The notes: generated by a model not told the origin, from the sequence alone. A stretch of 64,000 nucleotides of DNA from a bacterium (GCA_965216835.1 OZ244210.1:1429136-1493135); one strand, 5' to 3'; positions 1,379-63,548 are shown, counted from the stretch's first letter. Program-made: numbers and translations.

Positions 1379-2605
1379 GTGAAGACGGGAACGGGATGGG
1401 CGACGGCGATGCTGCTGGCGTCGACGGCAGTCGTGGTTGCGGCGGGGCCGGCGGCGGCGGGGAGGTCGATGGAGGGTACGTCGTTGGAGGTCTCCGCCGA
1501 TTTCCGGCTTCGCTACGAGGCCTCCGACCGCACGCTGGTGGAGGACGGAGACTCGCGCCACGACATCTTCCAGCGATTGCAGGTCGGGCTGGAGCTGAAG
1601 AACGAGCAGGGGCTGCGCGCGATCGTCGTCGTGCAGGACGCTCGCCGGTGGGGCGAGTCCGGCACCCCCGGCGCGGACGACGAAAGTCTCGATCTCCACC
1701 GCGGATACGTCGTGCTGGACGTTCCGACCGTCCCCGGCCTGACGCTGTTTGGGGGAAGACAGGGGCTGGACTACGGCCGCGGCCACGTCCTGGCGGACTC
1801 CCCGTGGGCCAACGCCGGTCGCGCCTACGACGGTGTCCGTGCGCGTCAGCGCCTCGGGCGACATCGGCTGGACGCGGGCTACGTCCGCGTGCGCAACCGG
1901 CGAACGTGGGAGGACGCGGCGGACGAGGGATTCGCGTTCGCGGTGGGGCACGTCACGGCGGCCGGCGTGTCCGTCGAGCCGATCGTGCTCTACCGGGAGG
2001 TCCGCTCCTCGAACGACTATCTGACGGCGGGCGGCGTCCACCTGCGGGCCGCGCGCGGTCCGGTGCGGATCCTCGGCGACGCCGTTCGCCAGTGGCGCCG
2101 CTCGGTCCGGGAGGACTGGAGCGCCGATCTGCTGGCCTTCGACGCGGAGCTGGATCTGGGGGGGCGGGAGCATCCCGTGACGCTGTCCGCGGGTCTGTCC
2201 CGGCACTCCGGTCAGGATCTCGAGGACGATCGGCTTCGGTACGACCGGCTCTACGCCAAGCGCCACGCCTTCCACGGTCTGGCGGACATCGCCCTGCCGC
2301 TGGCCGACGCCGCGGGGACGGGGCTGCTCGACCTGCACGCCTCCGTCGCCGCGACGCTGGGCGGCATCGAGGTCCTGACGGCCTACTACGCCTTCCGGAC
2401 CGCCGTGGACACCTGGACGGTGGCGCCGGATCCGCCGGACGACCTGGGCCGGGAGATCGACGTTCGACTGCGCGCCGCGGCGGCGGGCCTGAGGCTGGAG
2501 TTCGGAGGGGGGGTCTTCTTTCCCGGCGACGCTCTCGCGGACTCGATCCCCGGGAGCACGGAGGACGGCCTCTTCGGCTACCTGCAGGCGGCTGCGTCGT
2601 TCTAG
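1379..2605 (+). CDS. Putative outer-membrane beta-barrel protein (secreted, C-terminal Phe)
   Basis: 408 aa with N-terminal signal peptide ([19 protein letters not shown]), alternating amphipathic beta-strand-like segments and a terminal ...AAASF. Lies 20 nt downstream of the Nramp-related gene. Confidence 0.45.
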
Positions 2606-5991: not shown

Positions 5992-6782
5992 GCGTCGCCG
6001 CCCTGCTCCTCCGCCTTGGCGCGCTCCCACACGCGGTCCATCTCCTCCAGCGTCATGCGACGCCCCTCGGAGTCCACCGCCTTCTCCACCTGGCGGAACC
6101 GTCGCTCGAACTTCTTGATGGTGCCCACCAGCACCTCCTCCGGGTTCCGGTTCAGGAACCGGAGCAGGTTGACCACGGCGAACAGGACGTCGCCCAGCTC
6201 CTCGATGGCGTGCTCCGTGTCGCCGGCGTGGTACGACGCGCGCACCTCCTCCATCTCCTCCTCCACCTTGGCGAAGACCGGATCCGGATGCTCCCAGTCG
6301 AAGCCGATGGCGGCGGCGCGCTCCTGCACGCGGCGCGCCCGCATGAGCGCGGGCAGAGAGTGGGGGATCCCGTCCAGCACGGACTCCCGGTCCGTCTTGC
6401 CGGACTTCTCCCGCTCCTCCTTCTTCACCTCTTCCCAGACCCGCTTGGCGTCGTCCGAGCTGGCGGCCGCGGCATCGCCGAAGACGTGGGGGTGGCGGCG
6501 GTAGATCTTGTCGTACGCACCGTCGAGGAGCTCCTTCACCGAGAAGAGCTTCTCCTCCTCGGCGATGACCGCGATGAAAAGGAGGACGTACAGCAGGTCC
6601 CCGAGCTCCTCGCGGAACTCCTGCGGATCCCCGGAGGAGTGGGCCTCCAGGACCTCGTAGGTCTCCTCCAGCAGGTTGGGCTTGAGCGTCTCGATGGTCT
6701 GGTCCGCGTCCCACGGACAGCCGCCCGGGCCGCGCAGGCGGAGTTCCAGCTGGTGAAGCCGTTCGAAGGCCTTGCCGGGCAT
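5988..6782 (-). CDS. mazG: Nucleoside triphosphate pyrophosphohydrolase MazG
   Basis: 264 aa with two MazG-type EExxE/D helical modules (LGDLLYVLLFIA..., EELGDVLFAVVNL...). Convergent with the upstream gene and overlapping its stop. Confidence 0.9.
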   Translation of the reverse strand: MPGKAFERLHQLELRLRGPGGCPWDADQTIETLKPNLLEETYEVLEAHSSGDPQEFREELGDLLYVLLFIAVIAEEEKLFSVKELLDGAYDKIYRRHPHVFGDAAAASSDDAKRVWEEVKKEEREKSGKTDRESVLDGIPHSLPALMRARRVQERAAAIGFDWEHPDPVFAKVEEEMEEVRASYHAGDTEHAIEELGDVLFAVVNLLRFLNRNPEEVLVGTIKKFERRFRQVEKAVDSEGRRMTLEEMDRVWERAKAEEQGGDA

Positions 6783-6906
6783 CGTTTTCCTCCGGTGGAG
6801 TTCGGGGCAGCGTACCGGCCGGCTGCGCGTCCATCAAGGGCGCGCCTTGCCGGTCTCCGGCGCCTCTCCTATGCTGGGCCGTCGGTCAAGGAGGGGAGGG
6901 GACGGC

Positions 6907-8079
6907 ATGAACACCATGAGCACCTGGGTGGAGGTGGACCTGGACGCCTTCGCGTCGAATCTCCGGCACATCCGCCGGCGGATCGGCCCGGAGGTGAAGG
7001 TCCACCTCGTCGTGAAGGCCGACGCCTACGGGCACGGCGCGCCCGCCATCGCCCGGGTCGCGGAGACCGAGGGCGTGCACTCGCTCGGCGTGGCCACCCT
7101 GGACGAGGGCGTGGAGCTGCGCACCCACGGCGTGCGCGCGCCCGTCATCATCCTGTCTCCTACGTTGCCCACCGAGGCCGAGCGGGTGGTGGAGTTCGGC
7201 CTCACTCCGACCGTCGGCAACCCGTCGGCGGCGCGGGCGGTGGCCGATGCCTCCCGGTCCCGCGGCGTCACCACCGACGTCCACGTCGAGGTGGACACGG
7301 GCATGGGACGCTCCGGCGTCGCCTCGGGGGAGGCGGTGGCGTTCTGTGCCGCCCTGGCCGAGCTGGAGGGACTTCGCCTGGCGGGGATGTTCACGCACTT
7401 CCCCAAGGCGGACTCGCCCAACGGCACGGCCATGGTGAACCGGCAGCTCGAGGACTTCCGCGCCGTGGCGGACGCCGTGCGTACCGCCGGACTGGAACCC
7501 GGCGTGCTCCACGCGTCGAACTCGTCCGCGCTCCTGTTCCATCCGTCGACGCACCTGGACATGGTCCGCCCGGGCCTCATCGCGTTCGGACTGACCACCG
7601 CGGGGGCGCACCCCAATCCGGAGGGCTTCCAGCCGGTGATGCGCTTCGTCAGCCGCCTGGTCCACGAGCGGGAGATGCCGCCGGGACATCCCATCAGCTA
7701 CGGCGGCGACTTCGTGACGCCCGAGACGATGCGGGTCGGCACGGCGTCGGTGGGCTACGGACACGGCTACCCCTTCGCGCTCTCGGGGCGGGGGTACGCA
7801 CTGCTGCGCGGCCACCGGATTCCCATCCTCGGTCGCGTGACGATGGACACCACCGTCTTCGACCTGCGCGGGGTCCCGGAGGCGCGACTCGGCGACGAGG
7901 TGGTGCTGTTCGGCTCGCAGGGCGACGAAACGATCCACGTGAACGACCTGGCCGCGCTGGCCGGCACGCTCCCGTACGAGATCCTGATCGGCATCGGCCG
8001 GCGGGTGCCGCGGATCTACATCCGCTCCGGCCGGAAGGTCGGCGCGCGCACGCTGCTCGGCGTGGAGGACGCGTCGTGA
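6907..8079 (+). CDS. alr: Alanine racemase
   Basis: VVKADAYGHG PLP-lysine motif, VDTGMGRSG, and C-terminal YEILIGIGRRVPRIY. Start set at the internal ATG (MNTMSTWVEVDL) preceded by GGAGGGGAGGGG; the ORF-track start at 6772 overlaps mazG. Confidence 0.9.
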   Translation: MNTMSTWVEVDLDAFASNLRHIRRRIGPEVKVHLVVKADAYGHGAPAIARVAETEGVHSLGVATLDEGVELRTHGVRAPVIILSPTLPTEAERVVEFGLTPTVGNPSAARAVADASRSRGVTTDVHVEVDTGMGRSGVASGEAVAFCAALAELEGLRLAGMFTHFPKADSPNGTAMVNRQLEDFRAVADAVRTAGLEPGVLHASNSSALLFHPSTHLDMVRPGLIAFGLTTAGAHPNPEGFQPVMRFVSRLVHEREMPPGHPISYGGDFVTPETMRVGTASVGYGHGYPFALSGRGYALLRGHRIPILGRVTMDTTVFDLRGVPEARLGDEVVLFGSQGDETIHVNDLAALAGTLPYEILIGIGRRVPRIYIRSGRKVGARTLLGVEDAS

Positions 8080-15228: not shown

Positions 15229-17400
15229 CTAGTTCCGGAGCTCGTCCTCGTCGGTGCGGCGGGAAGCCCGGTCCAGCTCGTCGAAGGACGTGGCCGGGCT
15301 CCAGAGGTCCACGGTCTGGCCCAGGCCGTGGATGGGGCAGGGCTCCACCGGCTCGTCGCCCCGGACGAACATCTCCCGGAAGGCGTCCGGGCACTGGGGC
15401 ACCGCCTTCACCCCGGAATCCCGGCAGACGGATTCCCAGACGATGCCGTCGGGCGTCTCGAACTCCGTGCAGTCGGTGCCCTCCAGAGCGACCTTCATCG
15501 TCTCGATCCAGATGGGCAGGGCGGCCGACGTTCCGGTCATGTCGCGGCCGAGCGTCTTCTTCACGTCGAAGCCGACCCACACGCCCATCGTGTACTCCGA
15601 CGTGAAGCCGACGAACATCGCGTCCATGTAGTCGTCCATCGTGCCGGTCTTGCCGCCGGCCGGGCACGTGACGCCCTTCCACCTCGCCGATGCGCCGGTG
15701 CCCTTGTTCATGACGTCCTCGAACATGGACGTGAGGACCGCCGCCACCGGGGCGGCGAGCGCCTCCTCGGACTGCACCTGCCCGCGCTCCAGCACGGCGC
15801 CGTTCCGGTCGCGGACCTCCTGGATCGACCACGGGCGGTGCAGGATGCCCTGGTTGGGATAGACCGTGTAGGCCGCCGTGAGATCCGACAGTGTCACCTC
15901 CGAGGCGCCGAGAGCCGTGGAGGGGAAGGGGAGCAGCCGGCCGGAGATCCCGCAGCGCCGGGCGACGTCCACCGCCGCCTCCGGCCCGACGGTCAGGATC
16001 ATCCGCACCGCGGGCACGTTGATCGACTTCGTCATCGCGGTGCGCATCGTCACCGGGCCCTGGAACGTGCGCTTGGTATTCTCCGGCTTGTACGTGTCGC
16101 CGTTCGGCATCGGCACGACGAGAGGCTCGTCGAGGATTACGGTCGACGGCCCGATGCCCTGCTCCACCGCGGCCGTGAAGACGAACGGCTTGAACGCGGA
16201 GCCCGGCTGCCGCCTCGCCTGCATCGCCCGGTTGAACTTGCTCTCCCAGTAGTTCCGTCCGCCCACCATCGCCACGATCTCGCCGGTCCGCGTCTTCAGC
16301 ACGATGCAGGCGCCCTGCACGTACGGCGACGTGACGAACGGCGACTCGGGGGCGGTCCACGTCGAGTCCCTCACCACCTCGTAGTCGTTGTGCCGCTCCA
16401 GCCACCGCAGCTGGCTCTCCAGCGCCTCCTCCGCCGCCTTCTGGATCCTCCAGTCCAGCGTGGTCTCCACCGTCAGGCCGTCGTGGTAGAGCCGATCCGC
16501 CCCGTAGCGCGCGACGAGCTGCTGCCGCACGGACTCCACGAAGTAAGGCGCCCGCATCGAGGGAGCGTCGCGCTCCACCAGCGCGATCTCCTCCTCCCGC
16601 GACGCGTGGTACGTGGAGTCGTCGATGGCGCCGGTCTCGTGCATCGCGGCCAGCACGCGCTCCTGCCGGGCTCGCGCGTTCTCGAAGCGCCGGCGCGGGT
16701 CGAAGAGGGTCGGGTTGGCGGGGACGGCCGAGATCAGTGCGCACTCCGCCACGGTGAGTTCGGAGAGCTCCTTGTCGAAGTACTCGCGGGCCGCGCTACG
16801 CGCGCCGTGGGCGCCGTTGCCGTAGTAGATCTGGTTGAAGTACATCCCGAGGATCTCGTCCTTCGTGTAGATGCGCTCCAGCCGGATCGTCAGCAACGCC
16901 TCCTTGATCTTCCGCGTGATCGTCCGCTCGTGCGTGAGGAACAGGTTCCGCGCGAGCTGCTGCGTGATCGTGCTGCCGCCCTGGGAGGTCACGCCGCGGC
17001 GCAGGTTGGCCAGCACGGCCCGGGCAAGGGCGGCCGGCTGGATGCCCCAGTGCTCGTAGAAACTCCGATCCTCGGTGGAGATTACCGCGTCGATCAGCGG
17101 GCGCGGGATCTCCTCCAGGCGGGCCAGCAGCCGATCCTCGGAGAAGAGGTCCCCCAGTCCCGCTCCGTTGCGGTCCACGATGCGCGTGTTGGAGGGCGGC
17201 TCGATCCGCTCCAGGTGGGCGGCCGACGGCAGCTCGCTCTGGAAGCGCAGCAGCGCCGCGACGAATCCGCCGCCGGCGAGGAAGACGAACAGGAGCGTGA
17301 AGAAGAGCCACCCGTGCACGACCCGCCGCCAGGAGAGCGTGCGGACCGCGTCCAGCAGCCGGACGAGGAATCCGGCCGGGCGATGCGTCGGGTCTGTCAC
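15229..17400 (-). CDS. mrcA: Class A penicillin-binding protein 1A (bifunctional glycosyltransferase/transpeptidase)
   Basis: 723 aa with N-terminal TM anchor, GT51 motifs (EDRSFYEHWG, GGSTITQQLARN), and transpeptidase SxxK/SxN/KTG motifs (SAFKP, SIN, KTGT). GTG start. Confidence 0.9.
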   Translation of the reverse strand: MTDPTHRPAGFLVRLLDAVRTLSWRRVVHGWLFFTLLFVFLAGGGFVAALLRFQSELPSAAHLERIEPPSNTRIVDRNGAGLGDLFSEDRLLARLEEIPRPLIDAVISTEDRSFYEHWGIQPAALARAVLANLRRGVTSQGGSTITQQLARNLFLTHERTITRKIKEALLTIRLERIYTKDEILGMYFNQIYYGNGAHGARSAAREYFDKELSELTVAECALISAVPANPTLFDPRRRFENARARQERVLAAMHETGAIDDSTYHASREEEIALVERDAPSMRAPYFVESVRQQLVARYGADRLYHDGLTVETTLDWRIQKAAEEALESQLRWLERHNDYEVVRDSTWTAPESPFVTSPYVQGACIVLKTRTGEIVAMVGGRNYWESKFNRAMQARRQPGSAFKPFVFTAAVEQGIGPSTVILDEPLVVPMPNGDTYKPENTKRTFQGPVTMRTAMTKSINVPAVRMILTVGPEAAVDVARRCGISGRLLPFPSTALGASEVTLSDLTAAYTVYPNQGILHRPWSIQEVRDRNGAVLERGQVQSEEALAAPVAAVLTSMFEDVMNKGTGASARWKGVTCPAGGKTGTMDDYMDAMFVGFTSEYTMGVWVGFDVKKTLGRDMTGTSAALPIWIETMKVALEGTDCTEFETPDGIVWESVCRDSGVKAVPQCPDAFREMFVRGDEPVEPCPIHGLGQTVDLWSPATSFDELDRASRRTDEDELRN

Positions 17401-35260: not shown

Positions 35261-35773
35261 ATGGCGGTGCGGGAGATTCGCGTCTACGGCGATCCGGCGC
35301 TGAGGGAGAAGGCGTTGCCGATCGGGCCCGTGGACGACGACGTGCGCACGCTGGCGGCCGACATGCTGGACACGCTGGCGGAGGCCGAGGGCGTCGGGCT
35401 GGCGGGACCGCAGATCGGCGTGGCCCGGCGAATCGTCGTGGTGCATCCGCCGCCGGAGGACGACGGCACCCGGCCGGATCCCGTGGTCTACCTGGATCCG
35501 GTGGTCATCCAGAAGACCGGCCCTCAGGTGGCAGGCGAGGAGGGCTGCCTCTCCATCCCCGGCATCTACGAGACCGTGAAGCGTCCGAAGAAGGTGCGCG
35601 TGCGCGCGCGCTCGCTGGACGACGAGCCGCTGGAGTTCGAGGCGGAGGGAATGCTGGGCCGCATCTTCCAGCACGAGATCGATCATCTGGACGGGGTCCT
35701 CTTCGTCGATCGCATCGGCCCGATGCGGCGCGCGCTCCTGAAGAAGCAGCTCAAGGCGTTCCTCGAGGAATGA
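35261..35773 (+). CDS. def: Peptide deformylase
   Basis: Motifs GVGLAGPQIG, EGCLSIPG, and HEIDHLDG (metal-binding HExxH). Confidence 0.9.
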   Translation: MAVREIRVYGDPALREKALPIGPVDDDVRTLAADMLDTLAEAEGVGLAGPQIGVARRIVVVHPPPEDDGTRPDPVVYLDPVVIQKTGPQVAGEEGCLSIPGIYETVKRPKKVRVRARSLDDEPLEFEAEGMLGRIFQHEIDHLDGVLFVDRIGPMRRALLKKQLKAFLEE

Positions 35774-36699
35774 GGATCGTCTTCGCAGGCACTCCGGACA
35801 TCGCGGTCCCGTCGCTGGTCGCGCTGGCCGGGTCGTCGGTCGTGACGGAGATCCCGCTCGTCCTGTCGCAGCCGGATCGTCCGGCGGGCCGTGGCCGGAA
35901 GCTGCGTCCCAGCCCGGTGAAGGCGGCGGCGCTGGAGCGCGGCCTCGAGGTCCTCACGCCGGACAAGCCGAAGGACGTGCGGGCGACGCTGGAGGAGATC
36001 GCTCCGGACGCCATCGCCGTGGTGGCGTACGGACACATCTTCCGGAAGTGGCTGCTGGAGCTGCCGGCGCACGGCTGCCTCAACGTCCACTTCTCGCTCC
36101 TGCCGCGGCACCGCGGCGTGGCCCCGGTGCAGTGGTCGATCCTCGAGGGCGATGCCGAGGCCGGCGTGTCGGTCATGCGGATGGACCGCGGCGTGGACAC
36201 CGGGCCGGTGTTCCGCACGCGCGGGACGCCCATCGGGAAGACGGAGACGGCGGGTGAATTGCTGCATCGCCTCGCGGAGATCGGGGCGGCGGAGCTGGCG
36301 GCGACGGTCGGGGACCTGGCCGCCGGAACGGCGGTCGCGCAGCCGCAGCCGGAGGACGGCGCCACCTACGCTCGCCGGCTGGAGAAGGAGGACGGCCGCA
36401 TCGACTGGACGCGCGGCGCGGTGCGGATCGATCGGCAGGTGCGGGGGCTCTCGCCCTGGCCGGGCACGTACACGGAGTGGCGGGGAAGTCGTCTCAAGGT
36501 GCACGCCGTGGCGGCGTCGCCGGGCGGGAAGCTCGGGGCGGGGGTCCTGGAGTGGAAGGACGGAGAGGTGCGGTGCGGGACGGGAGACGGAACGTTGACG
36601 CTGGTGCGGGTGCAGCCCGAGGGCAAGGCCGCGATGGAGGGCGATGCGTGGGCACGCGGAGCAAGACCCGACCCGGGCGAGGCGTTCGGCCGGGCGTGA
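35770..36699 (+). CDS. fmt: Methionyl-tRNA formyltransferase
   Basis: MRIVFAGTPD N-terminus, formyltransferase motif HFSLLPRHRG, C-terminal domain. ATG overlaps the def stop. Confidence 0.9.
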   Translation: MRIVFAGTPDIAVPSLVALAGSSVVTEIPLVLSQPDRPAGRGRKLRPSPVKAAALERGLEVLTPDKPKDVRATLEEIAPDAIAVVAYGHIFRKWLLELPAHGCLNVHFSLLPRHRGVAPVQWSILEGDAEAGVSVMRMDRGVDTGPVFRTRGTPIGKTETAGELLHRLAEIGAAELAATVGDLAAGTAVAQPQPEDGATYARRLEKEDGRIDWTRGAVRIDRQVRGLSPWPGTYTEWRGSRLKVHAVAASPGGKLGAGVLEWKDGEVRCGTGDGTLTLVRVQPEGKAAMEGDAWARGARPDPGEAFGRA

Positions 36700-38048
36700 G
36701 GAAGCCGACCGCGCGGGGAACGGCGCTCGACGTCTTCCTCGCGTGGGATGCCTCCTCCGAGACCGCCGACGTCCTTCTGCACGGTCACGCCGGTTACGAG
36801 AAGCTGTCGCCGCGGGACCGGGATCTCGCCGCCGAGCTGGTGCGCGGCGTCTTCCGCTGGCGGGGTCGCCTGGACTGGCGCCTGTCGGGCTACGTCGATC
36901 GTCCGCTGGACGCGCTGGACCCGCCCGTGCGCTGGGCACTGCGTCTCGGCCTCTACCAGCTCGAACAGCTGGACCGCGTTCCCCCGCACGCCGCCGTGAA
37001 CACGTCGGTGGAGCTGGTGAAGGCGCGCGGCGCCCGCAGCGCGGCGTCGTTCGTGAACGCCGTCCTGCGCCGGGCGATCCGCGACACCGATCCGCCCGCG
37101 GAGCCCGACGCCTCGACCGATCCCGTGGAGCATCTGGTGGCCCGCACGAGCCATCCGGCTTGGCTGCTGCAGCGCTGGCTGGACCGGCACGGATTCCGAA
37201 AGACGCTGGCGCTGGCCGCCGCGGGCAACCGGAGGCCGTCCTTGACGCTCCGGGTCGGCTCCGACAGAGTCGACGCCGTCGACCTCATCGAGGATCTGCG
37301 GCGGCGCGGGGTGGAGGCGGCGCCGGGTGAGCTCCTGCCCGACACGGTGAAGCTTCCGGGCGGCTGGCACCCCGCGGTCCGTGAGATCCTGGAGAACGGC
37401 TGGGCGATCGTGCAGGACGAGGCGGCCGGGCTGGTGGCGCACGTGGCGCGGCCGGCGGGCGGGCTGCGCGTGCTCGACGTGTGCGCGGCACCCGGCGGCA
37501 AGACGATGCACTTCGCGGAGCTCTGCGGCGACGCGTGCATCGTGGCGGCGGATCGCAGCGCGCGGCGGCTCGAGTCGCTTCGCCTCACGCTGGCCCGCAC
37601 CGGCGCGCGCGGGATCCATCCCGTCGTTGCGGACGGCACGCGGCCCGCCACGCGCGGAGGTTTCGGACGCGTCCTGGTGGACGCTCCGTGCACGAACACC
37701 GGCGTGCTCGCCCGCCGCCCCGATGCGCGGTGGCGTCGCGCGCCGGAGGATGTCGCGCGGCTGGCGACGCTGCAGGGTGGGCTGCTGGACGCGGCCCGAG
37801 CCCAGGTGGGTCCCGGCGGATTGCTGGTGTACTCCACCTGTTCGCTGGAGCCGGAGGAGAACGAGGACGTGGTGAACGCCTACCTGAAGCGACATCCCGG
37901 CGATGCGCTCGTTCCCGCGGACGAGGTGCTGCCTGCCGAACTCGTACGCGACGGCTGCCTGGCGGCCTCGCCGGCGGAACACGGTCTGGACGGCGCGTTC
38001 GCCGCGGCCATCCGGCCGCGCGGCTCGTCCCTCCGGGTGGTCTCATGA
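36696..38048 (+). CDS. rsmB: 16S rRNA (cytosine-C5) methyltransferase RsmB (Sun family)
   Basis: NusB-like N-terminal domain, SAM motif VLDVCAAPGGKT, catalytic region DAPCTNTGV and TCS. GTG overlaps the fmt stop; conserved def-fmt-rsmB synteny. Confidence 0.8.
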   Translation: MRKPTARGTALDVFLAWDASSETADVLLHGHAGYEKLSPRDRDLAAELVRGVFRWRGRLDWRLSGYVDRPLDALDPPVRWALRLGLYQLEQLDRVPPHAAVNTSVELVKARGARSAASFVNAVLRRAIRDTDPPAEPDASTDPVEHLVARTSHPAWLLQRWLDRHGFRKTLALAAAGNRRPSLTLRVGSDRVDAVDLIEDLRRRGVEAAPGELLPDTVKLPGGWHPAVREILENGWAIVQDEAAGLVAHVARPAGGLRVLDVCAAPGGKTMHFAELCGDACIVAADRSARRLESLRLTLARTGARGIHPVVADGTRPATRGGFGRVLVDAPCTNTGVLARRPDARWRRAPEDVARLATLQGGLLDAARAQVGPGGLLVYSTCSLEPEENEDVVNAYLKRHPGDALVPADEVLPAELVRDGCLAASPAEHGLDGAFAAAIRPRGSSLRVVS

Positions 38049-38764
38049 AGACCGTCGTCGGGATCGTCCTGTCGGCCGTTCTGGCCTTCGTGACCGGGCT
38101 GCTGCTCTTCCAGTTCGGGATGCTGGCGTTCGTGCGATCGGGAGCGGAGACGCGGATCCCGGACCTCGTCGGAATGGAACTGGCCGGGGCCCGCACCACG
38201 CTGGAGGACGTCGGGTTCACCGGCGTCGTCGAGCGCGAGGAGACCTCGGTGGAGTTCGGCGAGGGCGTCGTGCTGGAGCAGCGCCCGGCCGCGGGCAAGG
38301 TCCTCCGCAAGGGCAGGAAGGTCTGGCTCACGGTTTCGCTGGGTCCGCGCAAGACCGCGGTACCCAGCGTGGTGGGCATGTCCTACCGGCAGGCGGGCAT
38401 CGTGCTGGCGGCGGACGACCTCTCCACCGGATCGGTCTCCCGCGTCCATCATCCCGGAGTCGACCGCGGCGACGTCATCGCCCAGAGCCCACCGGTGGGC
38501 GCGCCCCTGGCCGAGGGCGGCCGGATCGACCTCCTGGTCAGCCTGGGCCCACCGCCGGAAGCCTATGTCATGCCGGATCTTGCGGGCCGCGCGCTCCGCG
38601 ACGCCCGCCCGCTCCTGGCCCGCCACGGGCTGGAAGTGGGGGAGAGGACGGTCGTGATCGACCGGTCCGTCCTCCCGGGCACCATCCTGGAACACGCTCC
38701 GCCCGCCGGCAGCCGGGTGGAGGCCGGCGACGAGGTGGATCTGGTGGTGTCGGCCGGAAGCTGA
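38045..38764 (+). CDS. Membrane-anchored PASTA-repeat protein (three PASTA domains, no kinase or transpeptidase domain)
   Basis: N-terminal TM helix followed by three roughly 65 aa repeats with PASTA-like pattern (IPDLVGMELAGARTTLEDVGF..., VPSVVGMSYRQAGIVL..., VMPDLAGRALRDARPLL...). ATG overlaps the rsmB stop. Confidence 0.7.
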   Translation: MKTVVGIVLSAVLAFVTGLLLFQFGMLAFVRSGAETRIPDLVGMELAGARTTLEDVGFTGVVEREETSVEFGEGVVLEQRPAAGKVLRKGRKVWLTVSLGPRKTAVPSVVGMSYRQAGIVLAADDLSTGSVSRVHHPGVDRGDVIAQSPPVGAPLAEGGRIDLLVSLGPPPEAYVMPDLAGRALRDARPLLARHGLEVGERTVVIDRSVLPGTILEHAPPAGSRVEAGDEVDLVVSAGS

Positions 38765-38823
38765 GAAGCCCCTGAAGCCGCCCCTCCCATCGGCCGATAC
38801 CCGTTCGGAGAGGAGGCCGCATC

Positions 38824-39462
38824 ATGTCGCCAGCCGGATTCCGCGTCGTCGCCCGCTTCCGGGACGGAACCGTCCAGCGGGGTTTCACCGCCGACTTCCG
38901 CCCCGGACGGGGCCACTTCACCCTGGCCCCGGAGACGGGGGGATCCATCCAGGTCGAGGTGGCGGCCGCCAAGGCCATCTTCTTCGTGAAGTCGTTCGAG
39001 GGGGATCCCAACCACGTGCAGCAGAACGCGTTCGACGGTGAGCCCAAGGTGGGCCGCTGCGTGTGGGTGGAGTTCCTGGACGGCGAACGGATCGCCGGGC
39101 GCGCGCCGTCCTTGCGCGAGCAGAACGGCGGCTTCTTCCTCTTTCCCAACGACACCGCGTGCAACTTCGGCCGGGCGTGGGTCGTGATGGACAGCACGAA
39201 GGAAGTGCTCTTCGACGACGAGGCCGAGGTGGCCGCCGCGTCGTACATGCCGGCTCCGCTCCCGCACGGATCGATCGGGCCGGAGAGTTGGGTCGAGTCG
39301 CCGGAGGAGGGATCCGACGCCGCGCCGATGGCCGAGGCGGTCGATGCATCGACGGATGCGAAGCCGGCCTCCGACGTGCCCGGCGAGCCGGAGAAGTCGA
39401 GGCCCCGCGCCGACGCCCGGCCCCGCCCGCACAGCCGCGCGGATTTCCTCGGCGACTGGTAG
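38824..39462 (+). CDS. Hypothetical protein with an internal tandem duplication and an acidic low-complexity tail
   Basis: 212 aa, GGAGAGGAGG upstream. Two roughly 55 aa segments share V-x-F-x-DG-x-x-x-G...F-x-L-x-P spacing (VVARFRDGTVQRGF... and VWVEFLDGERIAGR...). No family assigned by eye. Confidence 0.5.
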   Translation: MSPAGFRVVARFRDGTVQRGFTADFRPGRGHFTLAPETGGSIQVEVAAAKAIFFVKSFEGDPNHVQQNAFDGEPKVGRCVWVEFLDGERIAGRAPSLREQNGGFFLFPNDTACNFGRAWVVMDSTKEVLFDDEAEVAAASYMPAPLPHGSIGPESWVESPEEGSDAAPMAEAVDASTDAKPASDVPGEPEKSRPRADARPRPHSRADFLGDW

Positions 39463-39504
39463 ATCCCGACCTCCCGTGGTAGCGTGCTCGCGGGAGGGAG
39501 ATTC

Positions 39505-40176
39505 TTGTCCACGGTCCTCGTCGCTCCGTCGATTCTCTCCGCCGACTTCGGTGCGCTGGAGAAGTCCGTCCGTCTCGTCGAGGACGCCGGCGCCGACCTC
39601 CTGCATCTGGACGTGATGGACGGGATGTTCGTCCCGAACATCAGCTTCGGGCCGATGGTCGTCGAGGCGGTGCGTCGCCTCACCGCGCTCCGGCTCGACG
39701 TGCATCTCATGATCGAGGAGCCGGCGCGCTACGTGGATGCCTTCGCCGACGCGGGGGCGGACGGCGTCACCGTCCATGTGGAGGCCTGCCGGGACGTCGC
39801 CGCCACGCTGGACGCCGTCCGTGACAGGGGGATCGCGCCGGGCATCTCGCTCCGTCCCGGCACGCCGTTCTCGGACGTGGAGCCCCACCTCGGGGCGGTG
39901 GATCTCGTCCTGATCATGACCGTGGAGCCCGGATTCGGCGGGCAGAAGTACATGGCCGACCAGGAGGCGAAGCTGCGGCGCGCCCGGGAACTGCGCGCGG
40001 CCGGCGGCTTTGATTACCGGATCGAGGTGGACGGTGGCATCGGGGCCGCCACGGCCCGCCCGGCGGTGGAGGCCGGCGCCGAGATCCTGGTGGCCGGATC
40101 GGCCCTGTTCGGCGCCCCCGACGTGAAGGGCTTCATCGCCGACCTGCACGCGCTGGGCGCCCCGGCCGCCCGCTAG
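39505..40176 (+). CDS. rpe: Ribulose-phosphate 3-epimerase
   Basis: APSILSADF, HLDVMDG and VEPGFGGQ motifs. TTG at 39505 follows GGGAGGGAG and gives the usual N-terminal length; in-frame GTG at 39484 is the alternative. Confidence 0.9.
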   Translation: MSTVLVAPSILSADFGALEKSVRLVEDAGADLLHLDVMDGMFVPNISFGPMVVEAVRRLTALRLDVHLMIEEPARYVDAFADAGADGVTVHVEACRDVAATLDAVRDRGIAPGISLRPGTPFSDVEPHLGAVDLVLIMTVEPGFGGQKYMADQEAKLRRARELRAAGGFDYRIEVDGGIGAATARPAVEAGAEILVAGSALFGAPDVKGFIADLHALGAPAAR

Positions 40177-62173: not shown

Positions 62174-62261
62174 GGAGGGATGGCCGAGTGGTTGAAGGCG
62201 ACGGTCTTGAAAACCGTTGAGCCGCAAGGCTCCGTGGGTTCGAATCCTACTCCCTCCGCCA
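62174..62261 (+). tRNA. tRNA-Ser (anticodon TGA), class II with long variable arm
   Basis: 88 nt: acceptor GGAGGGA/TCCCTCC, anticodon loop CTTGAAA, extended variable arm, encoded CCA. Confidence 0.85.
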
Positions 62262-62298
62262 CCGCTTCGGCGGCGGAGGGCGGAGGTTCCCACGGCTC

Positions 62299-62390
62299 CC
62301 CGGATCCCGGAGAGGTGCGAGAGTGGCTGAATCGGGCCGCCTGCTAAGCGGTTGGGGAGAGAAATCTTCCTCGAGGGTTCGAATCCCTCC
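62299..62390 (+). tRNA. tRNA-Ser (anticodon GCT), class II with long variable arm
   Basis: 92 nt: acceptor GGAGAGG/CCTCTCC, anticodon loop CTGCTAA, long variable arm, encoded CCA. Confidence 0.85.
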
Positions 62391-62407
62391 CTCTCCGCCA
62401 CATCTCG

Positions 62408-62484
62408 AGGTTGTTTCGCGCCCATAGCTCAATCGGATAGAGCGTTTGGCTACGGACCAAAAGGTTGGGGGTTCGAGTCCTCCT
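62408..62484 (+). tRNA. tRNA-Arg (anticodon ACG)
   Basis: 77 nt: acceptor GCGCCCA/TGGGCGC, anticodon loop CTACGGA, T-loop TTCGAGT, encoded CCA. Confidence 0.85.
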
Positions 62485-62663
62485 GGGCGCGCCAACCTGA
62501 AGCCGTGCGGGGCCCCGCGATGCGGACGCCCCGTACCGGCTTCCCAGCGACCCGCCCCGCACGTCGTCCCGCGGGCGGATCGTTCACCCGCCGTCGCGCG
62601 CAGAGTCCCGTCCGCTCCCCCCGGAGCCGGCCGGATCGGCGCGGGGCCGCAAGGAGATGGGGA

Positions 62664-63548
62664 ATGGCTTCACCGCAACGACGGATTCCGCTCGCGCTGC
62701 TTCTCGCCCTGGGACTGGTCACTCTGGGATCGGCCGGCTCCGCCCGCGCCGAGATCTGGAAGGTGGACGAGTACCGCGCCATCCAGGACGCCATCCTCAC
62801 GGCCACCTACGGCGACACGGTGATGGTGGCGCCCGGGACGTACGAGGGTCCGATGGTCCTCCGCTCCGGCATCACGCTGATGTCCGAGGAGGGACGGGAG
62901 AAGACCACGCTCCGCTACGGCGGCGCGTTCTACGTCATCAAGGCGGAGGACACGGACAGCCTCACCGTCCTCGACGGCTTCTTCATCGACGGCGGGAAGG
63001 GCACGGAAGGCGTGATCCTCGCCAGCGAATCGCAGATGACCATCAGGAACTGCGAGATCCACGGCGGCTGGAGCGCCATCCGCGGTCTCTACTCCCAGAT
63101 GCTCATCGAGAACAACATCATCCGCGAGTGCCAGAACGGCATCTACCTGTTCGAGTCCGAGGGCACCGTGCGCGGCAATGACATCCAGCTCTGCATCAAC
63201 GGGATGTCGTTGCTGAGTGCCAGCCCTCGCATCATCCGCAACAACATCTCGCGGAACACGCTGGGGTTCCTGGTCAAGGAGCACTCCGATCCCATCATCG
63301 GGGGAAGCCTCGCGACGGCCAACCGGGTCTGGAACAACCAGGCGGGCGGGCTGAAGAACTCCACCTACCTGAAGCGCGACGGTCTTCGCACGATGAAGCC
63401 GTACACCATGAAGGTGCCGTACAACTACTGGGGGTCGGACTGTCCCGACGCCATCACCTTCCAGGGACCCGTCGAGTGGGCGCCGTGGGTCGACGAGTCC
63501 GGGGATCGTTCCATTGACTCCTGCGAGAAGAGCGAGACGTCCCCGTAG
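62664..63548 (+). CDS. Secreted right-handed parallel beta-helix repeat protein; paralogue of 55694..56737
   Basis: Start at the internal ATG (MASPQRRIPLALLLALGLVTLGSAGSARA) after AAGGAGA. The ORF-track start at 62352 would run through the tRNA cluster. Repetitive beta-helix rungs (IRNCEIHGGWSAIRGLY, IENNIIRECQNGIYLF, VRGNDIQLCINGMSLL). Confidence 0.6.
   Translation: MASPQRRIPLALLLALGLVTLGSAGSARAEIWKVDEYRAIQDAILTATYGDTVMVAPGTYEGPMVLRSGITLMSEEGREKTTLRYGGAFYVIKAEDTDSLTVLDGFFIDGGKGTEGVILASESQMTIRNCEIHGGWSAIRGLYSQMLIENNIIRECQNGIYLFESEGTVRGNDIQLCINGMSLLSASPRIIRNNISRNTLGFLVKEHSDPIIGGSLATANRVWNNQAGGLKNSTYLKRDGLRTMKPYTMKVPYNYWGSDCPDAITFQGPVEWAPWVDESGDRSIDSCEKSETSP

What the first reader, a model, noticed from the sequence alone, without database searches (positions are those of the whole stretch)
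36696..39462. Kinase-less PASTA protein at the position where a PASTA Ser/Thr kinase is expected
In many bacteria the def-fmt-rsmB genes are followed by a PP2C phosphatase, a PASTA-containing Ser/Thr kinase, and then rpe. Here the same frame of def-fmt-rsmB ... rpe is present, but the slot holds a 239 aa protein with one N-terminal TM helix and three extracellular PASTA repeats and no kinase domain. Its start overlaps the rsmB stop. This looks like a muropeptide-binding module detached from its signalling domain, either a decoy or sensor co-factor or a remnant of kinase loss.
Basis: partly seen in the sequence, partly recalled or inferred. Interest (0 to 1): 0.5.

Follow-up and report, generated by a model that had tools for sequence, protein, structure and literature searches.

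The report
Kinase-less membrane PASTA protein, conserved family
This is an intact, strongly conserved gene for a small membrane-anchored protein made only of three cell-wall-binding (PASTA) modules; it sits in several Gram-negative-type phyla at the spot where Bacillus keeps its PASTA kinase, so the module seems to work without a kinase, by an unknown route.

Summary
Window 38045-38764 (+) encodes a 239-aa protein with a 4-residue cytoplasmic stub, one transmembrane helix and three PASTA domains (Pfam E=1.5e-41; AF2 pLDDT 92.7). It has no kinase domain. Its ATG overlaps the rsmB stop (ATGA). No kinase or PP2C phosphatase was found in the 64-kb window or in 226 kb of flanks of related loci.

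It is not a remnant or artefact. More than 50 homologue clusters keep almost exactly 239 aa. None of the best 120 hits carries a kinase domain. dN/dS is 0.11, equal to ffh and lower than def, fmt and rsmB.

In 17 of 18 related loci a kinase-less PASTA gene lies next to rsmB or one gene away, usually followed by rpe. Source labels place these loci in Eiseniibacteriota/Gemmatimonadota, Zhuqueibacterota, Zixibacteria, Nitrospinota and Acidobacteriota. This is the slot that holds prpC-prkC in B. subtilis.

The outer half of the TM helix and the juxtamembrane stretch are a conserved family signature.

Most likely mechanism (inferred): a periplasmic peptidoglycan/lipid II-binding adaptor that acts through membrane protein contacts rather than phosphorylation. 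Databases already list the family as "PASTA domain-containing protein", and JGI often mislabels it as a kinase. No paper found here studies its function. Interest is moderate.

The parts
35261..35773 (+). def (peptide deformylase), start of the conserved def-fmt-rsmB backbone
   Evidence: ORF. The homologous gene is called Pep_deformylase in L001 and L019. 78% aa identity to L019.
35770..36699 (+). fmt (methionyl-tRNA formyltransferase)
   Evidence: Pfam Formyl_trans_N 2.5e-35 and Formyl_trans_C 1.5e-22.
36696..38048 (+). rsmB (16S rRNA m5C methyltransferase). The gene is complete and its stop overlaps the PASTA start.
   Evidence: Pfam NusB 4.8e-31, RsmF-B_ferredox 4.9e-13, Methyltr_RsmB-F 1.1e-48. 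ATGA overlap read.
38045..38764 (+). Kinase-less PASTA protein gene, 239 aa plus stop
   Evidence: An identical 239-aa protein is on record from a 4.7-Mb contig (P0001).
38057..38134 (+). Single N-terminal transmembrane helix (aa 5-30), preceded by only 4 cytoplasmic residues (MKTV)
   Evidence: Kyte-Doolittle 19-residue maximum of 2.7 at aa 4-22. AF2 helix 2-31.
38111..38149 (+). Family signature in the outer half of the TM helix and the juxtamembrane stretch (aa 23-35): polar Q/H/N23, G25-M-L-x-F-V-(R/H)-(S/T)-G33-x-E35
   Evidence: Position 23 is polar in 19/19 close and 36/43 wider homologues. G25, M26, L27, F29, V30 and G33 are invariant in the close clade. The tool picked this stretch as one of the two most conserved peptides of the protein.
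38153..38344 (+). PASTA domain 1 (aa 37-100)
   Evidence: Best Pfam stretch aa 37-98. AF2 elements E35-37, H46-56, E59-67, E75-80, E86-88, E92-100.
38345..38551 (+). PASTA domain 2 (aa 101-169)
   Evidence: Pfam reports 3 stretches. AF2 elements E103-105, H114-123, E127-135, E143-148, E154-156, E160-168. Aligned to PknB and Stk1 PASTA units.
38552..38761 (+). PASTA domain 3 (aa 170-239)
   Evidence: AF2 elements E173-175, H184-193, E197-205, E213-218, E224-226, E230-237. Profile match to PknB PASTA4 and StkP PASTA4.
38824..39462 (+). DUF6982 gene (212 aa), a clade-specific insertion between the PASTA gene and rpe. It has a tandem small beta-barrel core, a disordered tail and a C-terminal FLGDW motif.
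   Evidence: Pfam PF22478 2.9e-22. Present in L001, L004, L005, L007, L008 and L019, inverted in L003, absent in L009 and L010. Alignment. AF2 model and weak tandem-Tudor matches.
39484..40176 (+). rpe (ribulose-phosphate 3-epimerase), downstream end of the conserved slot
   Evidence: Pfam Ribul_P_3_epim 1.9e-70.

Best explanation
The gene is a functional member of an old, conserved family of stand-alone bitopic PASTA proteins found in diderm (Gram-negative-type) phyla.

Expression: it lies in a long co-directional run of housekeeping genes (yebC-ruvCAB-queA-tgt-yajC-def-fmt-rsmB-PASTA-DUF6982-rpe-ffh...). It is probably co-transcribed with rsmB and translationally coupled to it through the ATGA overlap.

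Topology: the product probably inserts in the inner membrane with about 4 residues in the cytoplasm. One TM helix follows, and three kinase-type PASTA domains lie in the periplasm. It therefore has no cytoplasmic output domain.

Function (inferred): the PASTA array binds uncross-linked peptidoglycan stem peptide or lipid II close to the membrane surface, as the ectodomains of PknB, PrkC and StkP do.

Output (inferred): output goes through protein-protein contacts. These would involve the conserved outer half of the TM helix (a mid-membrane polar Q/H/N and a G-M-L-x-F-V motif with small residues on one face) and the juxtamembrane R/H-S-G-x-E stretch. The partner would be another membrane protein of the cell-wall synthesis or division machinery. 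No phosphorylation is involved.

Locus: its place between rsmB and rpe is an inherited gene order shared with the Firmicute prpC-prkC locus. It is not a sign of recent kinase loss.

Shown: the architecture, the absence of a kinase domain, the conservation, the purifying selection and the synteny. Inferred: the topology, the ligand and the mode of output.
For: - Architecture: Pfam 3x PASTA, E=1.5e-41, and no other domain. Only the TM+PASTA part of the PknB_PASTA_kin profile is matched. AF2 pLDDT is 92.7, with helix 2-31 and three PASTA units. The best fold matches are the S. aureus Stk1 and M. tuberculosis PknB ectodomains. The best sequence matches in the PDB are the same proteins, whereas the PBP PonA2 PASTA scores only 4e-7.
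- Functional gene: 247 homologues were found. All of the best 120 carry PASTA only, and about 50 of them are exactly 239 aa at 52-85% identity. dN/dS against L019 is 0.11, compared with ffh 0.11, rpe 0.14, rsmB 0.19, fmt 0.20 and def 0.25.
- Synteny: the kinase-less PASTA gene is next to rsmB, or one gene away, in 17 of 18 distinct related loci. rpe follows in most of them. Start/stop overlaps occur on one or both sides in L001, L019, L015, L017 and L018.
- Lineage labels come from record titles or from names of proteins in the same 90% clusters as neighbouring genes: Eiseniibacteriota/Gemmatimonadota, Zhuqueibacterota, Acidobacteriota/Terracidiphilus, Zixibacteria and Nitrospinota.
- The same slot holds prpC-prkC in B. 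subtilis (PMC8359813).
- TM and juxtamembrane signature: mean column identity of the TM segment is 0.70, against 0.71-0.74 for the PASTA domains. Position 23 is polar in 19/19 close and 36/43 wider homologues, and G25, M26, L27, F29, V30 and G33 are invariant in the close clade.
- No kinase or PP2C in the window or in 226 kb of related flanks.
- Diderm context: an Alginate_exp-type outer-membrane barrel gene is in the window.
- From the literature read here: PASTA ectodomains of PknB bind specific muropeptides and direct localisation (abstract of PMC3145798, listed). A free PknB PASTA ectodomain alters growth when overexpressed in mycobacteria (abstract of PMC4632501). The PBP2B PASTA domains stabilise a protein-protein contact with DivIB (title of bioRxiv 10.1101/713677, listed).
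Against: - There are no binding, localisation or genetic data for any member of this family.
- Ligand binding is carried over from homologues at 22-27% identity. From my own knowledge, not every PASTA domain binds muropeptides or beta-lactams.
- No partner protein was identified.
- Conservation of a TM helix can also reflect insertion or stability constraints.
- The charge distribution around the TM helix (K2 on the N side; R31, E35 and R37 on the C side) does not settle the topology by itself.
- The remaining 4.6 Mb of the genome was not available, so a trans-encoded kinase partner cannot be excluded.
- Conserved gene order with rsmB and rpe may say nothing about function.
Confidence: 0.55

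Rival explanations
1. Split PASTA kinase. The protein is the detached sensor subunit of a Hanks-type Ser/Thr kinase encoded elsewhere in the genome. It pairs with a PASTA-less membrane kinase through the conserved TM helix, so peptidoglycan sensing still ends in phosphorylation.
For: The PASTA array is of the kinase type rather than the PBP type. The TM helix carries a conserved polar residue and a small-residue face suited to helix-helix pairing. A separate receptor that pairs with a Ser/Thr kinase has a precedent, in the abstract of bioRxiv 10.64898/2026.05.25.727664 listed.
Against: No kinase or PP2C gene lies near the PASTA gene in the window or in any of 19 related loci, 226 kb in total (Pfam columns). 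Obligate partners are usually linked in at least some lineages. Only 64 kb of the genome could be examined, so the test is incomplete.
Confidence: 0.15
2. Passive wall-binding protein. It acts as a periplasmic tether, spacer or decoy that binds peptidoglycan fragments or beta-lactams without passing any signal on. Examples would be sequestering muropeptides or anchoring the inner membrane to the sacculus.
For: It has no output domain. Three PASTA domains in a row make an elongated periplasmic rod in solved homologues (3py9, 3m9g, 2kui). Overexpressed free PknB PASTA perturbs growth in mycobacteria (abstract of PMC4632501).
Against: A passive anchor would not need a sequence-specific TM helix, yet the outer half of the TM helix and the juxtamembrane stretch are as conserved as the folded domains. 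dN/dS is as low as that of ffh.
Confidence: 0.15
3. Recent remnant of kinase loss, a pseudogene, or a frameshift or assembly artefact of a full PASTA kinase.
For: The gene lies at the position of prkC in the Firmicute gene order. JGI names many homologues 'serine/threonine-protein kinase'.
Against: A complete rsmB abuts the gene with a 4-nt overlap, so there is no room for a kinase domain. No kinase-like sequence occurs in any frame of the window. The same 239-aa architecture is found in independent assemblies. dN/dS is 0.11. The JGI names are annotation transfer: the Pfam column lists only PF03793 for these proteins.
Confidence: 0.02

Closest known systems
PASTA-domain Hanks-type Ser/Thr kinases (B. 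subtilis PrkC, M. tuberculosis PknB, S. aureus Stk1/PknB, S. pneumoniae StkP; NCBIfam NF033483)
   Same: One TM helix followed by a tandem array of extracytoplasmic PASTA domains. These kinases give the closest sequence and fold matches (2kui 1.5e-53; 3py9, 3m9g and 5e12 top the Foldseek list). The gene lies in the same slot between rsmB and rpe as prkC in B. subtilis.
   Different: There is no kinase domain, only 4 cytoplasmic residues. There is no adjacent PP2C phosphatase, rlmN or rsgA. The hosts are diderm candidate phyla, not Firmicutes or Actinobacteria. The family has its own conserved TM and juxtamembrane motif. The NF033483 score is 122 bits against a cutoff of 450.
Kinase-less 'PASTA domain-containing protein' entries in public databases (NCBI name; JGI name 'beta-lactam-binding protein with PASTA domain'; T. 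pallidum TP0307 listed as a hypothetical PASTA protein in PMC4403809)
   Same: This is the family the gene belongs to: about 240 aa, an N-terminal TM helix plus three PASTA domains and nothing else.
   Different: These are names only. No paper found here gives a function, a ligand, a partner, or the conserved rsmB-PASTA-rpe gene order. TP0307 itself was not compared.
PASTA domains of class B/A penicillin-binding proteins (S. pneumoniae PBP2x, B. subtilis PBP2B, S. aureus PBP1, M. tuberculosis PonA2)
   Same: The same domain fold. In PBP2B the PASTA domains act through a protein-protein contact (DivIB), a kinase-independent mode of action like the one proposed here (title of bioRxiv 10.1101/713677).
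   Different: There is no transpeptidase domain. Similarity is much weaker: PonA2 4e-7 by sequence, and PBP2x and PBP1 at 1e-4 to 1e-6 by fold, against 1e-14 for the kinases. In the PBPs the PASTA domains are C-terminal appendages, not membrane-proximal.
Free PknB PASTA ectodomain expressed in mycobacteria (Turapov et al. 2015, PMC4632501)
   Same: A PASTA array without a kinase acting outside the cytoplasmic membrane. It is an experimental analogue of a stand-alone PASTA protein, and it affects growth and beta-lactam sensitivity according to the abstract.
   Different: It is an artificial construct in a monoderm that also has the full kinase. It is not a natural conserved gene.

Membership tests
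PASTA Ser/Thr kinases (PknB/PrkC/StkP, NF033483) | N-terminal cytoplasmic Hanks-type kinase domain (Pfam PF00069) | tested here: not met
   Pfam finds PASTA only. NF033483 is matched only at profile positions 336-563, at 122 bits against a cutoff of 450. Four residues precede the TM helix. tblastn with the PknB kinase domain finds nothing in the window.
PASTA Ser/Thr kinases (PknB/PrkC/StkP, NF033483) | Single TM helix followed by tandem extracytoplasmic PASTA repeats | tested here: met
   Helix 2-31 and three PASTA units. Pfam reports 3 stretches.
PASTA Ser/Thr kinases (PknB/PrkC/StkP, NF033483) | Cognate PP2C phosphatase gene adjacent | tested here: not met
   The neighbouring genes are rsmB and DUF6982. 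tblastn with PstP gives no hit in the window or in 19 related loci.
PASTA Ser/Thr kinases (PknB/PrkC/StkP, NF033483) | Firmicute-type locus between rsmB and rpe | tested here: met
   rsmB-PASTA-DUF6982-rpe in the window. The B. subtilis order is given in PMC8359813.
PASTA Ser/Thr kinases (PknB/PrkC/StkP, NF033483) | Binding of muropeptide or lipid II by the PASTA array | not testable with these tools
   This needs biochemistry. Mapping of ligand residues at 22-27% identity was not attempted.
Pfam PASTA domain (PF03793) | Score above the gathering threshold, with the beta3-alpha fold | tested here: met
   140.6 bits against 23.2. The AF2 units each have one helix plus strands. Single-domain matches to 3ouv, 5nod, 5e0y and 2mgv give TMt 0.70-0.83.
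PASTA-bearing penicillin-binding proteins (PBP2x/PBP2B/PonA2) | Transpeptidase (PF00905) or transglycosylase domain N-terminal to the PASTA domains | tested here: not met
   No such domain was found. The class A PBP of the window is a separate gene at 15229-17400 (-), and no PASTA hit was reported for it.
Stand-alone TM + 3xPASTA proteins of diderm phyla (database name 'PASTA domain-containing protein') | About 230-270 aa; an N-terminal TM helix, three PASTA domains and no other domain | tested here: met
   239 aa. All of the best 120 homologues carry PF03793 only, and most are 233-272 aa. The alignment covers all three repeats.
Stand-alone TM + 3xPASTA proteins of diderm phyla (database name 'PASTA domain-containing protein') | Gene next to rsmB, usually followed by rpe | tested here: met
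   True for the window and for 17 of 18 distinct related loci. The exception is L016, a 407-aa Competibacter protein.
Stand-alone TM + 3xPASTA proteins of diderm phyla (database name 'PASTA domain-containing protein') | Polar residue in the outer half of the TM helix and the M-x-x-F/Y-x-(R/H)-x-G-x-E juxtamembrane motif | tested here: met
   Q23, M26, F29, R31, G33 and E35 are present in the window protein.

The most novel reading that the evidence does not exclude
The TM + PASTA module between rsmB and rpe is the ancestral state, shared by the lineages leading to Firmicutes and to the diderm phyla. The PASTA kinases of Gram-positive bacteria then arose when a Hanks kinase and its PP2C partner were grafted onto this pre-existing stand-alone wall sensor. 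In diderm bacteria the original form persists as a kinase-independent regulator. It would read lipid II or nascent peptidoglycan at the outer face of the inner membrane and control a peptidoglycan synthase or division protein directly through its conserved polar TM motif.
Probability: 0.2. Interest if true: 0.7.

Novelty: new variant of a known kind. Interest (0 to 1): 0.45.

Why it matters
- PASTA domains are usually discussed as sensors of Gram-positive kinases and PBPs. One review read here presents PASTA kinases as a Gram-positive feature (PMC6213207).
- A strongly conserved family in several diderm phyla keeps the TM + PASTA array but has no kinase. This suggests the module has a function that does not need phosphorylation.
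- The shared rsmB...rpe position links this family historically to the Firmicute prpC-prkC locus. That makes the origin of PASTA kinases (fusion versus loss) testable by phylogeny combined with synteny.
- The conserved polar TM motif gives a concrete handle for mutagenesis and partner searches.
- Practically, many homologues are mislabelled 'serine/threonine-protein kinase' in JGI annotation. This would inflate kinase counts in these phyla.

Tried and rejected
1. Frameshifted or hidden kinase upstream: rejected. rsmB is complete and overlaps the PASTA start. tblastn with the PknB kinase domain and PstP finds nothing. Pfam on the neighbouring genes agrees with it.
2. Partner kinase or phosphatase in the window: Pfam was run on 20 further GC3-selected ORFs covering 1-21 kb and 27-59 kb. 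It found housekeeping, TPR, PBP and transport genes, and no Pkinase, PP2C or FHA domain.
3. Profile search of the 1.84-billion-representative library with alignment A1: uninformative for family size. The top 150 are all giant multi-PASTA proteins (495-5204 aa, up to 21 matched stretches) because repeat scores add up. It gives only 61,885 clusters at E<=1e-3.
4. The search for related loci with the wide alignment A1 failed because no stretch was conserved enough. The close-clade alignment A2 gave 8 loci. The window's own genome was not among them.
5. Exact look-up of the window protein in the look-up of encoding contigs: not on record.
6. Promoter and terminator scan of 29-45 kb: no promoter-like sites, and 3 terminator-like sites on the wrong strand, at the chance level. 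The operon structure therefore rests on gene spacing only.
7. Literature: seven searches (and 39 and 43 for the operon). None found a paper on stand-alone PASTA proteins of diderm bacteria. The query was badly designed and returned only ecology papers. The library lacks most subscription-journal papers.
8. PBP remnant: rejected on domain content and on much weaker similarity to PBP PASTA domains.
9. Mapping muropeptide-contact residues from PrkC or PknB: not attempted, because it is unreliable at 22-27% identity.
10. Direction of evolution (fusion or loss): not resolvable with the sequences at hand.

Full report
**1. What is in the sequence**

The window has about 71% G+C. Around the finding lies a long run of + strand housekeeping genes: yebC, ruvC, ruvA, ruvB, queA, tgt, yajC, def, fmt, rsmB, the PASTA gene, a DUF6982 gene, rpe, ffh, rpsP, rimM, trmD, rplS and rnhB (ORFs; Pfam; the same order with Pfam labels in relatives).

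The PASTA ORF is 38045-38764 (+) and encodes 239 aa. Its ATG overlaps the rsmB stop in the sequence TCATGA.
- Pfam finds three PASTA stretches (E=1.5e-41, 140.6 bits against a cutoff of 23.2) and nothing else.
- The NCBIfam model for PASTA kinases is matched only over profile positions 336-563 of 563, at 122 bits against a cutoff of 450. The TM and PASTA part is present and the kinase part is not.
- Only four residues (MKTV) precede a hydrophobic segment with a Kyte-Doolittle 19-residue maximum of 2.7.
- AlphaFold2, run with a 43-sequence alignment, gives pLDDT 92.7, a helix at 2-31 and three beta3-alpha units.
- The best fold matches are the S. aureus Stk1 ectodomain (3py9, 3m9g; E about 1e-14) and M. 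tuberculosis PknB PASTA 2-4 (5e12). PBP2x and PBP1 PASTA domains score far lower.
- A profile search of PDB sequences agrees: PknB 2kui 1.5e-53 and Stk1 2.7e-43, against PonA2 4e-7.

**2. Is it a broken kinase?**

No.
- rsmB is complete (NusB, ferredoxin-like and methyltransferase domains) and runs up to the overlap, so there is no room for a kinase domain.
- tblastn with the PknB kinase domain and the PstP phosphatase finds nothing in any frame of the 64-kb window (best E=0.19-0.8).
- Pfam on 20 further ORFs of the window finds no Pkinase, PP2C or FHA domain.
- The homologue search gives 247 hits. None of the best 120 has any Pfam domain except PF03793, and about 50 clusters at 52-85% identity are exactly 239 aa.
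- Against the closest relative with DNA in hand (L019, 85% aa identity), dN/dS is 0.11. That equals ffh (0.11) and is lower than rpe (0.14), rsmB (0.19), fmt (0.20), def (0.25) and DUF6982 (0.37).

This is a gene under strong purifying selection. It is not a remnant or an assembly artefact.

**3. Gene neighbourhood in relatives**

I collected 19 related loci, of which 18 are distinct (L006 is the same contig as L001).

Close clade (54-85% identity): record titles read Gemmatimonadota, Candidatus Eiseniibacteriota or simply 'bacterium' MAGs.
- The order def-fmt-rsmB-PASTA-(DUF6982)-rpe-ffh is kept.
- DUF6982 is absent in L009 and L010 and inverted in L003.

Distant homologues (31-38% identity): the arrangement persists.

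| Locus | Arrangement | Lineage label |
|---|---|---|
| L002 | fmt-rsmB-PASTA | Ca. Oleimicrobiaceae, Zhuqueibacterota |
| L013 | def-fmt-rsmB-PASTA-(61-aa ORF)-rpe-ffh | none obtained |
| L014 | rsmB-PASTA-rpe | Zixibacteria, from a TrmD cluster name |
| L015 | def-fmt-rsmB-PASTA-rpe-ffh | Nitrospinota, from an Ffh cluster name |
| L017, L018 | rsmB-PASTA-rpe, with 4-nt overlaps on one or both sides | none obtained |
| L011, L012 | PASTA gene convergent with rsmB-fmt-def | L011: Terracidiphilus (Acidobacteriota), from an AroC cluster name |
| L016 (exception) | 407-aa Competibacter protein, not near rsmB | Candidatus Competibacter sp. (source name) |

- None of the 226 kb of flanks holds a kinase or a PP2C (and the Pfam columns of the calls above).
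- In B. subtilis the order is defA-fmt-yloM(rsmB)-yloN(rlmN)-prpC-prkC-cpgA-rpe-yloS (PMC8359813).
- From my own knowledge, not tested here: in M. tuberculosis fmt-fmu-rpe are adjacent with no PASTA gene between them, and pknB lies elsewhere.

**4. A family signature outside the PASTA domains**

In the close clade the TM segment is as conserved as the folded domains (mean column identity 0.70 against 0.71-0.74).

Close clade (19 sequences):
- Position 23, in the outer half of the helix, is always polar (H 9, Q 8, N 2).
- A14, F15, G25, M26, L27, F29, V30 and G33 are invariant.

Wider set (43 sequences from several phyla, about 30-35% identity):
- Position 23 is polar in 36.
- M26 is kept in 30.
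- F/Y29 is kept in 35.
- G33 is kept in 32.
- E/D35 is kept in 34.

The locus-finding tool chose this stretch as one of the two most conserved peptides of the protein. Small residues (A14, G18, G25, A28, S32) fall on one helix face. I read this as a helix-helix contact surface at the periplasmic face of the inner membrane. That reading is an inference.

**5. Most likely mechanism**

Shown:
- a bitopic protein with no cytoplasmic domain and three kinase-type PASTA domains
- conserved, and tightly packed with rsmB (the ATGA overlap suggests translational coupling) and, in relatives, with rpe

Inferred:
- N-in, C-out topology, with the PASTA array in the periplasm
- a diderm host, supported by an Alginate_exp-type outer-membrane barrel gene in the window
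- binding of peptidoglycan stem peptide or lipid II, as for PknB (abstract of PMC3145798)
- output through TM and juxtamembrane contacts with a membrane partner of the wall-synthesis or division machinery

The closest analogy for the output step is the way PBP2B PASTA domains stabilise the contact with DivIB (bioRxiv 10.1101/713677). I put 0.55 on this package.

Rivals:
- A split sensor for a trans-encoded kinase: 0.15. It cannot be excluded without the rest of the genome.
- A passive tether or decoy: 0.15. The conserved TM motif argues against it.
- A remnant or artefact: 0.02.

**6. Comparison with what is known**

- It works like the sensor half of a PASTA kinase but fails the defining kinase-domain test, so it is not a member of that family.
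- It belongs to a database-level group of 'PASTA domain-containing proteins'. JGI calls them 'beta-lactam-binding protein with PASTA domain', or wrongly 'serine/threonine-protein kinase'.
- A kinase-less PASTA protein has been listed among T. pallidum hypotheticals (TP0307, PMC4403809).
- A COG2815 protein of Leptospira is listed with unknown function (PMC1664576). That COG2815 is the PASTA group is my recollection and was not verified here.
- I found no paper that studies the function of such proteins, or that notes the conserved rsmB-PASTA-rpe order across diderm phyla. The searched library misses most subscription-journal papers.

**7. Verdict**

- The gene is an ordinary member of its family, but the family is uncharacterised.
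- The cross-phylum synteny with the Firmicute prkC locus, together with the conserved polar TM motif, makes it a reasonable target for study.
- Novelty: a kinase-less variant of a known kind.
- Interest: 0.45.

Noticed in passing
window 38824-39462 (+): The DUF6982 gene between the PASTA gene and rpe has three parts: a core of two small beta-barrels, a disordered acidic/proline-rich tail of about 70 aa, and a C-terminal (I/L)FLGDW motif. AF2 gives pLDDT above 90 for aa 5-140, and the core weakly resembles the 53BP1 and FXR tandem Tudor domains (Foldseek E about 5e-4, low TM-score). The C-terminal motif is conserved in the clade's copies, whereas other DUF6982 proteins (130-145 aa) lack the tail. 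It is the fastest-evolving of the seven genes compared (dN/dS 0.37). It is present only in the close clade and is inverted in L003.
   Followed up: partly
homologues P0002, P0008-P0014 and others: JGI names many kinase-less homologues 'serine/threonine-protein kinase', although their only Pfam domain is PASTA. This is an annotation-transfer error that would inflate kinase counts in these phyla.
   Followed up: partly
window 21688-27229 (+): A complete rRNA operon (16S, tRNA-Ile-GAT, tRNA-Ala-TGC, 23S, 5S). It explains the drop in G+C to 0.57-0.62 at 22-28 kb.
   Followed up: yes
window 15229-17400 (-), 6772-8079 (+), 17475-19922 (-): Three genes lie 20-30 kb upstream: a class A PBP (transglycosylase + transpeptidase, 723 aa, no PASTA hit reported), alanine racemase, and an M14 carboxypeptidase with MAM-like and FlgD-Ig domains. 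The first two are cell-wall genes. None is linked to the PASTA gene in relatives.
   Followed up: no
window 1379-2605 (+): An ORF with an Alginate_exp outer-membrane beta-barrel match (2.7e-14). This is consistent with a diderm envelope for the host.
   Followed up: no
L016 5001-6224: A 407-aa PASTA-only protein, 39% identical, named as from Candidatus Competibacter. It is not next to rsmB and lies beside recC and dciA. It is the only exception to the synteny and may be a transferred or paralogous copy.
   Followed up: no
proteins P0131-P0280: The representative library holds giant proteins of 500-5200 aa with up to 21 PASTA-array matches to the profile. This is an unusual architecture and was not examined further.
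   Followed up: no
L017 1912-3622: In one relative, thiE-thiS-thiG are inserted between fmt and rsmB, while rsmB-PASTA-rpe stays intact with 4-nt overlaps. The PASTA gene stays with rsmB and rpe even though the backbone upstream is interrupted.
   Followed up: no
window 62174-62494 (+): A cluster of tRNA-Ser(TGA), tRNA-Ser(GCT) and tRNA-Arg(ACG). The GC3-selected ORF 62352-63548 overlaps part of it, so that ORF call is doubtful.
   Followed up: no
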